Of a stretch of DNA of 59,692 bases, positions 32,055 through 59,692 are shown piece by piece. A model generated the notes under the pieces. The model had not been told where the DNA came from, did no database searches, and was given only the letters and a program-made list of their open reading frames with translations. The DNA lies in NCBI GenBank assembly GCA_045545315.1, contig JAZQAR010000023.1, forward strand, positions 1 to 59,692, read 5' to 3'. The position numbers were made by a program, and so were the translations under genes. This DNA comes from Eubacteriales bacterium (GTDB lineage Bacteria > Bacillota > Clostridia > Oscillospirales > QAKW01). Each line of letters starts with the position of its first letter. Within the stretch, counting starts at the first letter, position 1.

Positions 32055-32118
32055 TATCCCCCTCCGCGGGGCAAGCGTACCCCGCGTGTCCCCCAAGGGA
32101 CAATCAAGTTAATTGCAA
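32055..32118 (+). repeat. Stop-codon-associated double-hairpin element, degenerate copy
   Basis: TATCCCCCTCCG, then hairpin CGGGGCAAGCGTACCCCG, then CGTGTCCCCCAAGGGACAATCAAGTTAATTGCAA. It begins 3 nt after the TAA stop of the CorC gene and has the same orientation as that gene. Confidence 0.6.
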
Positions 32119-32276
32119 TATAGCTAACGGCCCTGCGGGAATGAACAACCTCCCGCAGGGCTGATTTATTTTGATTAAAAATGAAAAATACCCTGTAGGG
32201 GAGGGGTTCCCCCTCCCGCCAAAATTCCATCAAACCCTACGGCGACCGATGGTCGCCCCTACGATATGAGCCTATA

Positions 32277-32444
32277 TGCCCAATTCAATTGTGCATCGCA
32301 AGGTAAAATCCTCAATGGAATCGGCACCATCACTACAATATGATCCATTTGCCCAATTCAATTGTGCATCTCAAGGTAAAATCCTCAATGGAATCGGTAC
32401 CATCACTACAATATGATCCATGTGCCCAATTCAATTGTGCATCT
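32277..32444. repeat. 73-bp tandem repeat, about 2.3 copies; each unit carries a CAATTCAATTG palindrome
   Basis: Units start at 32277, 32350 and 32423 (TGCCCAATTCAATTGTGCATC...ACAATATGATCCAT). There are only 3 mismatches between the two full units. Confidence 0.85.
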
Positions 32445-32528
32445 CCCTCTCCCCTCCCCACAAGTGCTCCCCGGAAACAAGATCAGCCCTGCGGGAGGTG
32501 GTTCATTCCCGCAGGGCCGTAGGCAAAT

Positions 32529-32602
32529 TTGCAATTACTTGTGGGTTGTTCCCCCTCTAGAGGGGGAACACGAACAGCCCGCCGGCTGTTCGGAGGGGGT
32601 CA
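32529..32602 (-). repeat. Stop-codon-associated double-hairpin element
   Basis: Minus strand reads TGACCCCCTCCG, then GAACAGCC-GGCG-GGCTGTTC, then GTGTTCCCCC-TCTAG-AGGGGGAAC, then AACCCACAAGTAATTGCAA. The leading TGA is the pepT stop codon (32600..32602). Confidence 0.8.
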
Positions 32603-33805
32603 CTTCGTAACGATGTTCAATAAAACTTCTACCATTTTATCCATTGCATTAACGGGAATCAGCTCGTTAACACCGTGGAAGTTCATCCCGCCGGTGGAGA
32701 GGTTGGGGCAAGGCAGGCCCCGGAAGGAAAGACGGGCGCCGTCGGTACCGCCGCGGATGGCCACCACCTTGGGGGTGACGCCGGCCTTTTCCATAGCCGC
32801 CTTGGCGGTATCGATGATATGCATATGGGGCAGGATCTTCTCCCGCATATTATAGTAGCTGTCGTTAAGGGTCAGTTCAAAGGTCCCTTCGCCGTAGACC
32901 TTGTTCAGGTACGCAGTCAGGTCGGTGACGAACTCTTTACGGCGGAGGAACTTTTCCATATCGTGATCCCGGATGATCATATGGATCTGCGCCTCGGTCT
33001 CGTCGCCGCTGATATGGTTCACGTGGTAAAAACCCTCGTATTTTTCGGTATGGGCAGGAGTTTCTGCGGCAGGCAGGCGGTTCACGAGCTCCACCGCCAA
33101 GAGAGCGGCGTTTTTCATCTTATTCTTCGCCTCGCCGGGGTGGATATTAATGCCGTGGATCACCCATTTTGCAGAGGCAGCGTTGAAGTTTTCGTATTCG
33201 ATCTCGCCCAACTCTCCCCCATCCACCGTATAGCCCCACTGGGCGCCCAGTTTGGAAAGATCCAGAAGGTCTGCCCCGCTACCGATCTCTTCATCGGGGG
33301 TAAAGCAAAGGGCGATCCGCCCATGCTTTCGGGCAGGGTCTGCCACCAGCAGAGCGGCGGCCGCCATGATCTCAGCGATGCCGGCCTTATCGTCGGCTCC
33401 CAGCAGGGTATTGCCATCGGTGACGATCAGCTCCTGCCCGGCATAATCAGCCAGGTAGGGGAACCGCTTTAAGTCGGTGACGGTGCCGTTTTCCAGGGTC
33501 AGGTCTCCCCCCTCGTAGCGCACCACCCGGGGCGACACGTTCTCGCCCGGCGCATCGGGGGAGGTATCCATATGAGCGATCAGCGCCACGCAGGGCAGAT
33601 CCTCCAAACCCGGGGTGGCAGGCAGCCAGCCGTAGACGTAGCCGTTCTCGTCCATATGGGGATTTTCCAGCCCCAATTCTTTTAGTTCCTCCACCAAAGC
33701 GGCGCCCAGCACCCTTTGCCCGGGAGTGGTGGGGCTCCCGGATCCGTTCTCGTCGGAGGCGGTGGAAAACTTGGCATATTTGATAAAACGTTCCTGAACG
33801 GTCAT
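32600..33805 (-). CDS. pepT: Peptidase T (tripeptide aminopeptidase, M20B)
   Basis: ORF track 32600..33880. I chose the ATG at complement 33803..33805, preceded by AAGGAGAA. The N-terminus MTVQERFIKYAKFSTASDENGS...IAHMDTSPD and a length of 401 aa are typical of PepT. Confidence 0.85.
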   Translation of the reverse strand: MTVQERFIKYAKFSTASDENGSGSPTTPGQRVLGAALVEELKELGLENPHMDENGYVYGWLPATPGLEDLPCVALIAHMDTSPDAPGENVSPRVVRYEGGDLTLENGTVTDLKRFPYLADYAGQELIVTDGNTLLGADDKAGIAEIMAAAALLVADPARKHGRIALCFTPDEEIGSGADLLDLSKLGAQWGYTVDGGELGEIEYENFNAASAKWVIHGINIHPGEAKNKMKNAALLAVELVNRLPAAETPAHTEKYEGFYHVNHISGDETEAQIHMIIRDHDMEKFLRRKEFVTDLTAYLNKVYGEGTFELTLNDSYYNMREKILPHMHIIDTAKAAMEKAGVTPKVVAIRGGTDGARLSFRGLPCPNLSTGGMNFHGVNELIPVNAMDKMVEVLLNIVTK

Positions 33806-58219: not shown

Positions 58220-58318
58220 TTTTTCCTCTTTTCTTCTTAAAACGTGCGCTTACATCTTCATTATAACACCATACTGTGAAAAATCAATCCCACAGGACGG
58301 GAAAATTTTGGTTTTCCA

Positions 58319-58346
58319 TTGACTTTTTCTGCCCGTTTGGTATACT
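58319..58346 (+). promoter_or_regulatory. Sigma-70-type promoter (extended -10) for the ceramidase-like gene
   Basis: TTGACT (58319..58324), a 16-nt spacer ending in TGG, then TATACT (58341..58346). It lies about 30 nt upstream of the start codon. Confidence 0.5.
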
Positions 58347-58377
58347 GAAACCAACATCAGAAAGGAGTATGATTGCG

Positions 58378-59670
58378 ATGTTTCAAACCGGTTTTGCCCG
58401 GGTGGACGTTACCCCGCCTTTGGGGACCTATCTGTCTGGCTATTTTGTATTACGGACCTCCGTTGGGGTAAAGGACCCTATCTATCTGAACGCCTTGGCC
58501 ATCACCAAGGATGAGGATACCGTGCTGGTGATCACCGGCGACTTTATGTATATCGCCATGAGCTTTATGGATGAATGCCGTGCCCTGATCTCAGCCGACA
58601 CCGGCCTCCCCGTTGACCATATTATGCTGCAATCCATTCATCAGCACACCTCCACCTATCCCGGCGTGGATTGTGCAAACGAGCGGGAATATACCGATCT
58701 TTTGATCCGGAAATACCGGGACGTAGCCAAGATGGCCCTGGATGACCGCAAGGACTCCCGGATCTTCATCGGCGAAAAGGAAGTGGCAAAGACCATCTCC
58801 TTTATCCGTCGGTTCCGGATGAAGGACGGCACCTCCCGCACCAACCCTGGCCACAAGCACTGGGATGAAGTGGATCATCCCTTAGGCGAGGCCGATAACG
58901 TCACCCGCCTGGTTCGGTTTAAGCGGGAAGGCGCAAAAGACATCGCCTTTGTCAACTTCAGCACCCATCCCGACGTGGTCGGCGGCGAGAAATTCAGCGC
59001 CGATTGGCCCGGCTTCGTCCGGACCTTCACCGAACAGCGGCTGGAAAACGTTCACTGCATCTTGATGAACGGTTGCCAGGGCGATACCAACCACATTGAT
59101 TTCAGCATCGATCGTATCACCGACCCCGAAAGCCGTTATGCCCATAGCCAAATGATGGGCCGCGTGATCACCGATTCCGTTGTGGAGCTTTGGGATCAGC
59201 TGGAAGAGATCCCCGCCGGTGCGGTTAAAGCCCAGATGGCAATGGTGCGCACCCCCTCTAATACCGATTGTATGGATAAACTCGATGAATACAAAGCCTT
59301 GCAAGAGGATCTGACCAGCGGAAAAGCCGAATTCCACGGTACTATGGCGGAACGTGCCGATATCCGCCGGGTTGCCGCCATGGATAACCTGCCTCTGTTC
59401 CAGCGGGTGCCGGTCACTGTGCTCTCCTTTGGTAAGGTAGCCATCGTGGGCTACGGCGGTGAGCCCTTCACCGAATATGCCCAGAACGTGCGGAAGGCCA
59501 ACCCCCACCTGTTCGTGCTTTCTGCCTGCCTGGCCAACGGAAGCCAGGGCTACCTGCCCTCCAGATCCGCCTTTGAAGAAGGCGGCTACGAGGCCCACGC
59601 CACCAACTTTACCATCGGCATCGCCGATGCCTGCCAGAACAAGGCGCTGGAGTTCCTCTCCAACGTCTGA
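58378..59670 (+). CDS. Hypothetical hydrolase with a neutral/alkaline-ceramidase-like N-terminal motif
   Basis: ORF track 58276..59670. The ATG at 58378 lies 10 nt after AAGGAG. The start MFQTGFARVDVTPPLGTYLSGYF resembles the ceramidase_alk N-terminal signature. The family call is tentative. Confidence 0.55.
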   Translation: MFQTGFARVDVTPPLGTYLSGYFVLRTSVGVKDPIYLNALAITKDEDTVLVITGDFMYIAMSFMDECRALISADTGLPVDHIMLQSIHQHTSTYPGVDCANEREYTDLLIRKYRDVAKMALDDRKDSRIFIGEKEVAKTISFIRRFRMKDGTSRTNPGHKHWDEVDHPLGEADNVTRLVRFKREGAKDIAFVNFSTHPDVVGGEKFSADWPGFVRTFTEQRLENVHCILMNGCQGDTNHIDFSIDRITDPESRYAHSQMMGRVITDSVVELWDQLEEIPAGAVKAQMAMVRTPSNTDCMDKLDEYKALQEDLTSGKAEFHGTMAERADIRRVAAMDNLPLFQRVPVTVLSFGKVAIVGYGGEPFTEYAQNVRKANPHLFVLSACLANGSQGYLPSRSAFEEGGYEAHATNFTIGIADACQNKALEFLSNV

Positions 59671-59692
59671 ACCCCCTCCGATGTGTCGGCGG
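59668..59692 (+). repeat. Stop-codon-associated double-hairpin element, truncated by the window end
   Basis: TGAACCCCCTCCGATGTGTCGGCGG. The TGA is the stop of the preceding gene. The first hairpin arm is identical to the fumC copy. Confidence 0.7.

What the first reader, a model, noticed from the sequence alone, without database searches (positions are those of the whole stretch)
32055..59692. ~75-nt double-hairpin element that begins exactly at stop codons; first stem fully compensatory between copies
There are seven copies:
- 32055..32118 (+, degenerate);
- 32529..32602 (-);
- 49503..49577 (-);
- 54569..54642 (-);
- 56305..56377 (+);
- 59668..59692 (+, cut by the window end);
- the 56305 and 54569 copies also sit within the longer composite arms.

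The consensus is TGA-ACCCCCTCCG-[8-bp stem, GGCG loop]-GTGTTCCCCC-[4-6 nt]-GGGGGAAC-AACCCACAAGTAATTGCAA.

The first stem is GAACAGCC/GGCTGTTC, GATGTGTC/GACACATC or GGGGCATT/AATGCCCC. The sequences are entirely different, yet each pairs perfectly. The loop and the second hairpin stay fixed. That is strong evidence for selection on structure.

Every copy has the same orientation as the gene upstream of it. In four copies the leading TGA is that gene's stop codon (pepT, the M24 peptidase, the small ORF and the ceramidase-like gene). In the degenerate copy the element starts 3 nt after a TAA.

No U-tract follows, so these are not plain intrinsic terminators. The C-run at the stop codon could also pair with the G-run of hairpin 2, giving alternative structures.

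Possible roles are mRNA 3'-end stabiliser, a translation-termination-coupled signal, or a site-specific mobile element that targets stop codons.
Basis: seen in the sequence. Interest (0 to 1): 0.7.

Follow-up and report, generated by a model that had tools for sequence, protein, structure and literature searches.

The report
Stop-codon-abutting hairpin-plus-terminator repeat family
This is a family of about 130-base repeated DNA units (two covarying hairpins, a conserved linker and a transcription terminator) sitting directly after the stop codons of unrelated genes in an uncultured rumen Clostridia lineage; it is a new example of the known REP/BIME-type intergenic repeats, not a new kind of system.

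Summary
The copies are real, at the stated coordinates, and far beyond chance.

- The unit is longer than described. About 25 nt after hairpin 2 every complete copy continues into a third conserved hairpin (13 bp, about -28 kcal/mol) followed by a U-rich tail. "No U-tract follows" is therefore wrong: the repeat carries its own intrinsic terminator.
- An eighth, diverged "type B" copy lies at 13739-13866 and is not next to a stop codon.
- The fumarase ORF reads 21 codons into its copy.

**What holds up**
- Covariation is strong: 98.4% of cells are paired, 15 of 32 pairs change on both sides, and 0 of 500 shuffles reach this.
- Orthologous copies in three related genomes keep the conserved blocks intact while 4-fold sites are only 54-73% identical.
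- At orthologous gene ends the element is present, absent, or replaced by the other subtype. The protein's C-terminus stays at or within two residues of its native end at four of the five loci compared; the fumarase instead gains a 21-residue tail.

**What weakens the "stop-codon targeting" reading**
- Unrelated terminators and other repeat hairpins in this window also start 1-9 nt after stops.
- A RAYT-like transposase with its own REP hairpins lies in the window.

**Best reading:** a REP/BIME-like 3'-end cassette, transcribed as the 3' UTR and spread as DNA. How it spreads is unknown, and no RNA data could be obtained.

The parts
32474..32602 (-). Type A unit behind pepT: TGA stop (32602-32600), C-run 32599-32595, hairpin 1 stem GAACAGCC/GGCTGTTC, hairpin 2, linker, hairpin 3 and U-rich tail.
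   Evidence: (151.6 bits)
49449..49577 (-). Type A unit behind the M24 (Xaa-Pro) peptidase: TGA stop (49577-49575), then A, then C-run. Hairpin 1 has the same stem as the pepT copy.
   Evidence: z = -8.4; 154.1 bits
54514..54642 (-). Type A unit at the fumarase 3' end, with hairpin 1 stem GATGTGTC/GACACATC. The TAA at 54642-54640 is out of frame. The ORF continues 21 codons to the TAA at 54577-54575, which lies inside the element.
   Evidence: 153.2 bits. In one search the FumaraseC_C domain ends at residue 471 of 492.
56305..56432 (+). Type A unit behind the 77-aa ORF: TGA 56305-56307; C-run 56309-56313; hairpin 1 56316-56337 (stem GGGGCATT/AATGCCCC, loop GGCG); hairpin 2 56338-56359; linker 56360-56387; hairpin 3 56388-56423; U-rich tail 56424-56432.
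   Evidence: (156.5 bits)
32053..32172 (+). Degenerate type A unit behind the CNNM/CorC-type gene (TAA at 32050-32052). The C-run starts 5 nt after the stop. Hairpin 1 has one mismatch, hairpin 2 is shortened, and hairpin 3 is intact.
   Evidence: (125.4 bits)
59668..59692 (+).
   Evidence: 16.7 bits, truncated
13739..13866 (+). Diverged type B unit: C-run, hairpin 1 GCGGGGTC-AGCG-GACCCCGC, hairpin 2 ACCCCCAAAGGGGGT, and a different third hairpin. It is not preceded by a co-oriented gene.
   Evidence: (51.8 bits)
54164..54641 (-). Long composite arm downstream of the fumarase. It holds the type A unit, further hairpins, ATGCACAATTGAATTGTGCAT palindrome modules and a GTAGGGG-headed REP-like hairpin. 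It is the inverted partner of 56307-56769.
   Evidence: (I1-I4: 98, 88, 83 and 100% complementary)
56307..56769 (+). Long composite arm downstream of the 77-aa ORF, the inverted partner of 54164-54641. Hairpin 1 and the hairpin 2 loop differ from the partner arm, while the next 95 nt are 98% identical.

Best explanation
**What it is.** The element is a lineage-specific, REP/BIME-like modular repeat that serves as a ready-made gene 3' end. The basic unit is about 125-130 nt and runs in this order:
1. stop codon;
2. a 0-5 nt spacer;
3. a single-stranded C5(TCC) run;
4. hairpin 1 (8-9 bp, any sequence as long as it pairs, RGCG loop);
5. hairpin 2 (GTGTTCCCCC/GGGGGAACA);
6. a conserved unpaired linker (AACCCACAAGTAATTGCAA);
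7. hairpin 3 with a U-rich tail.

**How it most likely works.**
- It is transcribed with the upstream gene as that gene's 3' UTR (inferred).
- Hairpin 3 plus the U-tail ends transcription (inferred from the sequence).
- The two GC-rich hairpins start about 9 nt behind the terminating ribosome. They act as a second barrier protecting the coding part from 3'-to-5' decay, as REP sequences do in E. coli (inferred by analogy).
- The invariant loops and linker imply a sequence-specific partner, either protein or RNA, which is not identified.

**How it spreads.** Copies arise and are exchanged at the DNA level. This shows as gain, loss, subtype replacement and patchy conversion between copies, often as longer mosaics with other repeat modules. 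The enzyme is unknown. A RAYT-like single-strand-DNA transposase in the window shows that hairpin-handling machinery exists in this genome (inferred link only).
For: **Structure**
- The three-hairpin consensus has 32 pairs at -63.9 kcal/mol. A single copy folds with z = -8.4.
- 98.4% of cells are paired, 15 pairs change on both sides, and 0 of 500 shuffles match this. Slid controls reach only 43-55% paired.

**Terminator**
- Hairpin 3 folds at -27.6 to -29.6 kcal/mol, with 5-8 U in the next 10 nt.
- A G-U pair at its base is invariant in 10 of 10 copies. This fits folding of the sense strand.

**Position and orientation**
- All type A copies are co-oriented with the upstream gene and sit at the ends of transcription units.

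**Constraint**
- 4-fold sites are 0.54-0.73 identical between the genomes. The stems and fixed blocks of the orthologous M24 copies are identical (read off the alignment). Whole-unit identity is 0.79-0.84.

**Native C-termini**
- M24 homologues are 355-357 aa, pepT homologues 399-405 aa, and most GDPD homologues 268-270 aa.
- The fumarase Pfam domain ends exactly where the element begins.

**Turnover at orthologous sites**
- M24: present in the window genome and JAZNEH, absent in CAZIQE.
- Small ORF: present in the window genome and two near-identical strains, absent in JAZNEH and CAZIQE.
- pepT: type A in the window genome, type B in a 90% relative and in CAZIQE, none in a 70% relative.
- GDPD: present in JAZNEH and JAZOXD, only a remnant in CAZIQE.

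**Concerted changes**
- The hairpin 1 loop is A in all JAZNEH copies and G in the window's intact type A copies.
- The third base of the hairpin 3 loop is G in all three JAZNEH copies and U elsewhere.

**Mosaic arrays and copy number**
- The same module order recurs at four loci in two genomes.
- Element depth is about 8 times gene depth in a rumen metagenome.

**Hairpin-handling machinery**
- A RAYT-like gene with flanking hairpins lies in the window.
Against: - No transcript data exist, so transcription, termination and stabilisation are all untested.
- The U-tract is interrupted (UGAUUUAUUUU) and the hairpin 3 loop is unusually long at 10 nt.
- A plain terminator or stabiliser would not need invariant loops and an invariant linker.
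- No terminal inverted repeats or target duplications were seen, and no clean empty-versus-filled pair could be aligned on both sides.
- The RAYT-like gene is flanked by a different hairpin, not by hairpin 1 or 2.
Confidence: 0.5

Rival explanations
1. Purely selfish mobile DNA: a non-autonomous REP- or MITE-like element moved in trans by a transposase. Under this reading it has no role for the host, and its position and orientation reflect only which insertions are tolerated.
For: - It is multi-copy.
- It is gained, lost and replaced between close relatives.
- A rearrangement breakpoint between the window genome and two relatives falls within 17 nt of the small-ORF stop, where the element starts.
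- It forms mosaic arrays with other repeats.
- A RAYT-like Y1 transposase lies in the window.
- Modules are lost precisely in a near-identical strain.
Against: - Vertically inherited orthologous copies keep their fixed blocks intact while 4-fold sites are near saturation.
- All type A copies are co-oriented with the upstream gene.
- There are no terminal inverted repeats or target duplications.
- The hairpin 3 stem variant follows orthology (the fumarase copies share one variant in two species), so conservation is not simply recent copying.
Confidence: 0.2
2. A translation-termination-coupled RNA device. A stable structure about 9 nt after UGA would slow or modulate termination, promote read-through or recoding, or switch between two folds depending on whether a ribosome covers the first C-run.
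For: - The stop is TGA at every window and JAZNEH type A copy that has an in-frame stop, while TAA dominates the window's ORFs (22 TAA, 7 TGA, 2 TAG).
- The 8-10 nt spacing to hairpin 1 resembles that of known recoding stimulators (own knowledge).
- An alternative fold, in which the first C-run pairs with the G-run, is possible in every copy of both types. It is only 2-12 kcal/mol less stable than the two-hairpin fold.
- The C5-hairpin-C5-G5 layout is the one feature shared by types A and B.
Against: - TAA precedes the element in JAZOXD, and at the fumarase it is an out-of-frame TAA.
- Counted by independent loci, the TGA excess is weak (about 4.5 of 7).
- The spacer varies from 0 to 5 nt and differs by 1 nt even within a species.
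- Read-through frames differ between copies, so no extension peptide is conserved (and reading of the sequences).
- The two-hairpin fold is always the more stable one.
- Unrelated hairpins in this genome also abut stops.
Confidence: 0.08
3. A multi-copy 3'-UTR-derived small RNA, or a protein-binding platform. The conserved unpaired linker next to a terminator hairpin would be a seed or binding site that ties many mRNAs to one regulator.
For: - The linker AACCCACAAGTAATTGCAA and the loops are nearly invariant across species while hairpin 1 stems drift.
- The layout of a terminator preceded by a single-stranded conserved stretch resembles 3'-UTR sRNAs (own knowledge; background in PMC7038943, found).
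- Genome-specific parallel changes in loops could reflect co-evolution with a partner.
Against: - No RNA evidence of any kind exists.
- The host genes have no common theme: peptidases, a fumarase, a Mg/Co-efflux-type protein, a phosphodiesterase and unknowns.
- Type B lacks this linker.
- Parallel loop changes are equally explained by gene conversion.
Confidence: 0.1
4. An attC-like recombination site that marks gene cassettes moved by a site-specific recombinase.
For: - The structure is conserved while the stem sequence is variable.
- It sits directly behind ORFs in the orientation of the gene.
- A rearrangement breakpoint lies at its 5' edge.
Against: - The genes are housekeeping genes in conserved synteny and on both strands, not a one-directional array.
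- No integrase is present in the window.
- Neither the RYYYAAC/GTTRRRY cores nor extrahelical bases are present (reading).
- Hairpin 1 pairs perfectly.
Confidence: 0.02

Closest known systems
REP sequences and BIMEs (bacterial interspersed mosaic elements) with their RAYT transposases
   Same: - Both are dispersed, structured palindromic repeats in intergenic DNA behind genes.
- Palindromes are kept through complementary changes (PMC2817692).
- Both are arranged as mosaics with other motifs in a fixed order.
- A RAYT-like gene flanked by hairpins, and GTAGGGG-headed hairpins, lie in the same window.
- In E. coli, REPs stabilise upstream mRNA, and those close to stop codons affect translation (own knowledge).
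   Different: - Hairpins 1 and 2 lack the GT(A/G)G head.
- The unit is not a single 20-40 nt palindrome or an inverted doublet.
- It includes its own terminator and a conserved unpaired linker.
- The RAYT-like gene is flanked by a different hairpin.
- The host is an uncultured rumen Clostridia lineage.
MITE-type small repeats that carry regulatory signals (Correia/NEMIS, ERIC, RUP, BOX; stem-loop repeat families surveyed in PMC2267715)
   Same: - The size is similar (about 130-480 nt).
- Both are multi-copy, fold into stable structures, and are co-transcribed with neighbours.
- Both are gained and lost between relatives and are linked to rearrangements.
   Different: - No terminal inverted repeats or target-site duplication were found.
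- The 5' edge is fixed at the stop codon while the 3' edge is modular.
Intrinsic (Rho-independent) terminators
   Same: Hairpin 3 is a 13-bp GC-rich stem followed by a U-rich tail. It is co-oriented with the upstream gene and sits at the end of the transcription unit.
   Different: - It is a repeated, sequence-conserved terminator with a 10-nt conserved loop.
- It is preceded by about 90 nt of conserved structured leader that starts at the stop codon.
Uptake-sequence pairs that form terminators behind genes (Neisseria DUS, Haemophilus USS)
   Same: An over-represented sequence is reused as the stem of terminators behind many unrelated genes (own knowledge).
   Different: No short uptake-type motif was identified, and the unit here is much longer and more complex.

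Membership tests
REP / BIME | A short imperfect palindrome with a conserved GT(A/G)G head | tested here: not met
   Hairpin 1 is preceded by CCTCCG and hairpin 2 by CGTGTT. GTAGGGG-headed hairpins do exist, but as separate distal modules of the long arrays.
REP / BIME | Mosaic arrangement with other repeat motifs in intergenic DNA | tested here: met
   The same module order recurs at four loci in two genomes: the unit, G-rich hairpins, 23-nt hairpin repeats, ATGCACAATTGAATTGTGCAT palindromes, then a GTAGGGG hairpin.
REP / BIME | A cognate RAYT gene flanked by the same repeat in inverted orientation | tested here: not met
   The RAYT-like gene at 25933-26682 (NF047646, 64 bits, below the cut-off of 80) is flanked by TGTGTCAC(G/A)GGGACGGTTCTCTTGACACA at 25874, 26683 and, inverted, 27800. 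This is not the element.
REP / BIME | High copy number in the genome | tested here: inconclusive
   There are 7 copies in 28 kb of the window, and about 8-fold depth over the neighbouring gene in a metagenome. No complete genome could be scanned.
MITE | Terminal inverted repeats and a target-site duplication | tested here: not met
   The ends (T[G/A]A-C5... and ...CTGATTTATTTT-CGCAG) are not inverted copies of each other. The one apparent pairing of flanks is copy-specific. The filled and empty small-ORF sites cannot be aligned on the 3' side.
Intrinsic terminator | A GC-rich stem-loop directly followed by a U-tract, downstream of and co-oriented with a gene | tested here: met
   Hairpin 3 has 13 bp and folds at -27.6 to -29.6 kcal/mol, with 5-8 U in the next 10 nt in all 9 copies. 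The simple scan missed it because its loop limit is 8 nt.
Intrinsic terminator | Transcripts end at the U-tract | not testable with these tools
   Rumen metatranscriptomes hold no reads of this organism over the element.
Integron attC site | R''/L''...L'/R' core sites (RYYYAAC...GTTRRRY), extrahelical bases, an integrase and a one-directional cassette array | tested here: not met
   The cores are absent and hairpin 1 pairs perfectly. The genes lie on both strands in conserved synteny. No integrase domain was found.
Bacterial SECIS / stop-codon recoding signal | An in-frame UGA followed by a hairpin, with a conserved reading frame continuing downstream | tested here: not met
   The proteins end at the native length at the stop. 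Downstream frames differ between copies (TGA-C against TGA-A, and hairpin 2 loop-length differences). TAA also occurs before the element.
Any Rfam family | A match to a curated covariance model | tested here: not met
   There were 0 hits at gathering thresholds over the whole window. Only chance-level miRNA-type hits appeared at E <= 1.

The most novel reading that the evidence does not exclude
The unit may be a portable gene-end cassette that is placed, and later replaced by other subtypes, with near single-nucleotide precision at translational stop codons. The mechanism would either read the stop codon or terminating ribosome directly or use a very short T(G/A)A target. Alternatively, the conserved C5-hairpin-C5-G5 core may be an RNA device that senses the terminating ribosome. 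Either would be a new way of coupling a repeat element to translation termination.
Probability: 0.12. Interest if true: 0.75.

Novelty: new member of a known kind. Interest (0 to 1): 0.35.

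Why it matters
If the main reading is right, a group of uncultured rumen Clostridia reuses one conserved, structured cassette as the 3' end of many unrelated genes.

- **For genome annotation:** these repeats break MAG assemblies. Contigs of the near-identical strains end inside them, so recognising the family would help.
- **For RNA biology:** it offers a natural set of covarying 3'-UTR structures with a built-in terminator.
- **For evolution:** it shows REP/BIME-style mosaics and concerted evolution outside the Proteobacteria. These come with visible side effects: a 21-residue element-encoded tail on a fumarase and a rearrangement breakpoint at an element edge.

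It does not open a new category of system unless the precise stop-codon placement proves to be mechanistic.

Tried and rejected
**Searches that found little or nothing**
- The exact 27-mer scan of species-representative genomes gave one hit only. The pattern was too strict, because relatives differ by 1-3 bases.
- The hairpin 2 pattern scan of JGI metagenomes gave four chance hits.
- Viral contigs, plasmids and phages gave no match.
- Rfam gave nothing.
- RNA runs held only fragments of conserved coding sequence from other organisms, with nothing over the element.
- The window's own M24 protein and the 75-aa version of the small ORF are not on record.

**Ideas considered and dropped**
- Hairpin 1 derived from the upstream flank: there is no similarity, and the same stem occurs behind different genes.
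- Strain-level hypervariability of hairpin 1: strains 99% identical in protein keep the same stems and differ only in loops.
- GDPD truncated by the element: most homologues are 268-270 aa, so the 279-aa CAZIQE protein is the extended one.
- IS200/IS605-style left and right ends with a guide and a target tetranucleotide: there is no complementarity, and the three hairpins are unlike each other.
- A right boundary at CTGA: similarity continues through the T-tract to CG(C/G)(A/G)G.
- A selenocysteine or read-through extension: the frames are not conserved.
- An attC site: see the membership table.

Full report
**1. Is it there?**

Yes. Direct reading of the window shows the copies at the stated places: 32055(+), 32529-32602(-), 49503-49577(-), 54569-54642(-), 56305-56377(+) and 59668-59692(+).
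- The tail motif occurs 4 times against 0.19 expected.
- The hairpin 2 pattern occurs 4 times against 0.00 expected.
- A purely architectural scan (C5, 12-40 nt, C5, 2-9 nt, G5) over about 160 kb of window plus related loci returns only family members.
- TGA is the in-frame stop of pepT, the M24 peptidase, a 77-aa ORF and a 464-aa ORF.

**2.

*The unit is longer.* Aligning the copies with their flanks shows that similarity starts at T(G/A)A-(A)-CCCCCTCCG. It does not stop at ...AATTGCAA.
- After about 10 variable bases every complete copy has a third hairpin of 13 bp with a conserved 10-nt loop, followed by CTGAT(T/A)T(T/A)ATTT.
- This hairpin folds at -27.6 to -29.6 kcal/mol and has 5-8 U in the next 10 nt.
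- It is an intrinsic-terminator-like module. The simple scanner missed it only because its loop limit is 8 nt.
- So "no U-tract follows" is wrong. The real unit is about 125-130 nt: stop, C-run, hairpin 1, hairpin 2, linker, terminator.

*An extra copy.* A covariance model built from eight copies also finds a diverged copy at 13739-13866 (52 bits). It has the same core (C5, an 8-bp hairpin with AGCG loop, C5, AAA, G5) but a different remainder. I call this type B. It is not behind a co-oriented gene.

*The fumarase reads through.* At the fumarase, the TAA in front of the C-run is out of frame and the ORF reads 21 codons into the element. The Pfam FumaraseC_C domain ends at residue 471 of 492, exactly where the element begins. 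The tail is therefore element-encoded. The same is true in a related genome.

**3. Structure and covariation**

- The RNAalifold consensus is three hairpins with 32 pairs. A single copy folds with z = -8.4.
- On ten copies, 98.4% of cells are paired and 15 pairs change on both sides. This covers 7 of 9 pairs in hairpin 1 and 6 of 13 in hairpin 3. No shuffle of 500 reaches these values, and slid controls drop to 43-55% paired.
- No helix has a pair that varies on one side only.
- A G-U pair at the base of hairpin 3 is invariant, which fits folding of the sense strand.
- Nine hairpin 1 stems were seen in all, seven of type A and two of type B. One further type A stem came from a metagenome contig end.

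**4. Where it comes from and who else has it**

- The organism is an uncultured ruminant-gut Clostridia lineage. Metagenome runs that hold the region come from bovine, sheep and goat gut. The nearest named homologues are Oscillospiraceae and "Clostridia bacterium" MAGs at about 65% identity.
- Three related MAGs could be reached through neighbouring proteins:

| Genome | Assembly | Protein identity |
|---|---|---|
| JAZNEH | GCA_045588515.1 | about 91% to the window (M24) |
| CAZIQE | GCA_964541385.1 | about 89% to the window (M24) |
| JAZOXD | GCA_045659565.1 | GDPD 82% to JAZNEH |

- Near-identical strains (99%) came from ENA assemblies.
- A 70% relative has no element in 21 kb.
- There is no match in Rfam, viral contigs, plasmids or phages.

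**5. Orthologous gene ends**

| Gene | Window genome | Relatives |
|---|---|---|
| M24 peptidase | TGA-A-C5, stem GAACAGCC | JAZNEH: TGA-C5, stem GAGGAGCA (three double changes). CAZIQE: same last residue, TAA, no element |
| 77-aa ORF | TGA + element, also in two near-identical strains (TGA-A-C5 or TGA-C5) | JAZNEH: TGA, no element. CAZIQE: TAA, no element. In both, the next gene's promoter follows |
| pepT | Type A directly after TGA | 90% relative: type B after TGA+TCAA. CAZIQE: type B after TAA+AACTG, with a compensatory A-T to G-C change between the two |
| GDPD | Not in the window | JAZNEH: TGA-C5. JAZOXD: TAA-C5 with another stem. CAZIQE: a C-run and a hairpin-3-like terminator but no hairpins 1/2, and a protein 9-11 residues longer than nearly all homologues |
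| Fumarase | Same frame-shifted junction and same stem | JAZNEH: same as the window |

Homologue lengths show that the element begins at or within two residues of the native C-terminus at four of these five loci; at the fumarase the out-of-frame stop lets the ORF run 21 codons into the element.

**6. Constraint and concerted evolution**

- 4-fold degenerate sites are only 0.54-0.73 identical between these genomes. Orthologous elements are 0.79-0.84 identical overall. Their stems and fixed blocks are unchanged, as read from the alignments.
- The hairpin 3 stem variant follows orthology: the fumarase copies share GCGCCCCGGGA in two species. This argues for vertical descent under constraint.
- Some loop positions follow the genome instead. 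The hairpin 1 loop starts with A in all JAZNEH copies and G in the window's intact copies. The third base of the hairpin 3 loop is G in all three JAZNEH copies.
- The two long arms in the window are a patchwork of 98, 88, 83 and 100% identity, with unrelated hairpin 1 stems.
- Copies therefore also exchange sequence.
- Strains 99% identical keep the same stems and differ only in loops, in a 1-nt junction indel and in one precisely deleted distal hairpin. Hairpin 1 is therefore not hypervariable.

**7. Context that tempers the "stop-codon" claim**

- Strong 3' hairpins of unrelated genes in this window start 1-9 nt after the stop in about seven of the roughly twelve gene ends that have one.
- Two other repeat hairpin families also abut stops. 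One is TAA|TGTGTCAC... behind two consecutive genes. The other is a GTAGGGG-type hairpin 1 nt after the oxidoreductase stop.
- TAA is the common stop here: 22 TAA, 7 TGA and 2 TAG among the window's ORFs. TGA is over-represented at type A copies. Counted by independent loci the excess is modest, however, and TAA also occurs.
- Close packing of structures against stops is thus a habit of this genome, not a peculiarity of this element. Even so, a homology boundary within 0-1 nt of the stop at six loci remains striking.

**8. Rearrangement**

Relative to JAZNEH and CAZIQE, the fumarase/small-ORF block is inverted with respect to the M20-M24 operon in the window genome. The breakpoint falls between the small-ORF TGA and a point at most 17 nt downstream, which is where the window's element starts. 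The block is now flanked by the two inverted arms of about 480 nt. Two routes give this geometry and the data cannot separate them:
- a duplicative inversion;
- an insertion followed by recombination between the inverted arms.

**9. A transposase nearby**

The ORF at 25933-26682 has a Y1 transposase domain (PF01797, E = 2.9e-15). It matches the NCBIfam REP-associated tyrosine transposase model better than the IS200 model (64 bits, below the cut-off of 80). It is flanked by its own hairpin repeat, including an inverted copy, as described for RAYTs (PMC2817692). RAYTs are known in Clostridia (PMC5581495). This shows that the genome has single-strand-hairpin transposition machinery and other REP-like families. 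It does not link that enzyme to the element.

**10. Conclusion**

- The finding is a real, structured and evolutionarily constrained repeat family.
- Its best description is a REP/BIME-like 3'-end cassette that includes an intrinsic terminator. It is co-transcribed with the upstream gene (inferred), and it spreads and homogenises at the DNA level by an unidentified mechanism.
- It is a new member of a known kind.
- The precise abutment to stop codons, the conserved C5-hairpin-C5-G5 core shared by two subtypes, and the invariant loops and linker remain only partly explained.
- These keep open, at low probability, a mechanistic link to translation termination.

Noticed in passing
window 25933-26682 (+), with hairpins at 25874-25904, 26683-26711 and 27800-27830: A 249-aa RAYT-like Y1 (IS200-type) transposase (Pfam PF01797; NCBIfam REP_Tyr_transpos at 64 bits, below its cut-off). 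It is flanked by the hairpin TGTGTCAC(G/A)GGGACGGTTCTCTTGACACA. The two direct copies start right after TAA stops, and the third copy is inverted and 100% complementary.
   Followed up: partly
window 41107-41144, 42363-42400, 42514-42551, about 49390-49420; L006 5430-5680: A second dispersed hairpin family with the core CAGGGGACGGTTCC (AAGACAGGGGACGGTTCCTTGTCTT). It is related to the hairpin that flanks the RAYT-like gene.
   Followed up: no
window 13904-13935, 32273-32450 (3 copies at 73-nt spacing), 54203-54384 (4 copies), 56610-56735 (3 copies); L001 1604-1680: Repeated near-perfect palindromes, ATGCACAATT(G/C)AATTGTGCAT, occur in tandem modules inside the long arrays. They look like operator sites or another repeat family.
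   Followed up: no
window 32190-32260, 54150-54185, 56755-56800; L001 1715-1800: GTAGGGG-headed REP-like hairpins (for example CCGTAGGGGAGGGTTCCCCTTCC) form the distal module of the arrays. One starts 1 nt after the TAA of the oxidoreductase gene (54147) on the other strand.
   Followed up: no
window 56500-56590; L001 1490-1570; L006 about 800-900 (-): Tandem units of about 23 nt, TATATCATCA-NCCG-NNAG-GNTG. Each is a small hairpin whose stem differs between units but still pairs, and the number of units varies between copies.
   Followed up: no
window 54575-54640 (-): The class II fumarase carries a 21-residue C-terminal tail (TPSDVSADTSCSPSGGGTTHK) encoded by the repeat element. The tail is conserved in frame in the JAZNEH relative (L006 1005-1070).
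   Followed up: yes
window 50652-52886 (-): An AraC-type regulator and an M20 peptidase form one uninterrupted 744-aa ORF. In two relatives the M20 gene stands alone behind its own promoter. The AraC reading frame runs through that promoter-like sequence (52080-52140).
   Followed up: partly
window 40156-49271 (-): A 1937-aa RHS-repeat protein (15 RHS repeats, DUF6531) is followed by three ORFs of about 300 aa without domains, separated by 117-nt repeats. The whole region of about 9 kb is absent between M24 and the opp operon in the JAZNEH relative. It looks like a polymorphic-toxin locus.
   Followed up: partly
window 899-19520 (-): Three very large ORFs lie here. The two that were scanned (9785-13666 and 14310-19520) have S-layer-homology, PASTA and endonuclease/exonuclease/phosphatase domains. 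The ORFs share 300-nt repeats (97-396, 12968-13267, 18876-19175).
   Followed up: no
L020 530-560, compared with window 56465-56500: In a near-identical strain, the hairpin TTCATCAGCCACGGGGCTGATG of the long array is missing and the flanks are joined cleanly. The junction to the stop also lacks the extra A (TGA|CCCCC).
   Followed up: partly
L007 2950-3190 and L011 6330-6476 (CAZIQE): A different simple repeat (ATTTCTTG/ATTTCTGAAAT units) fills the intergenic DNA of the CAZIQE relative at positions where the window genome has the element.
   Followed up: no
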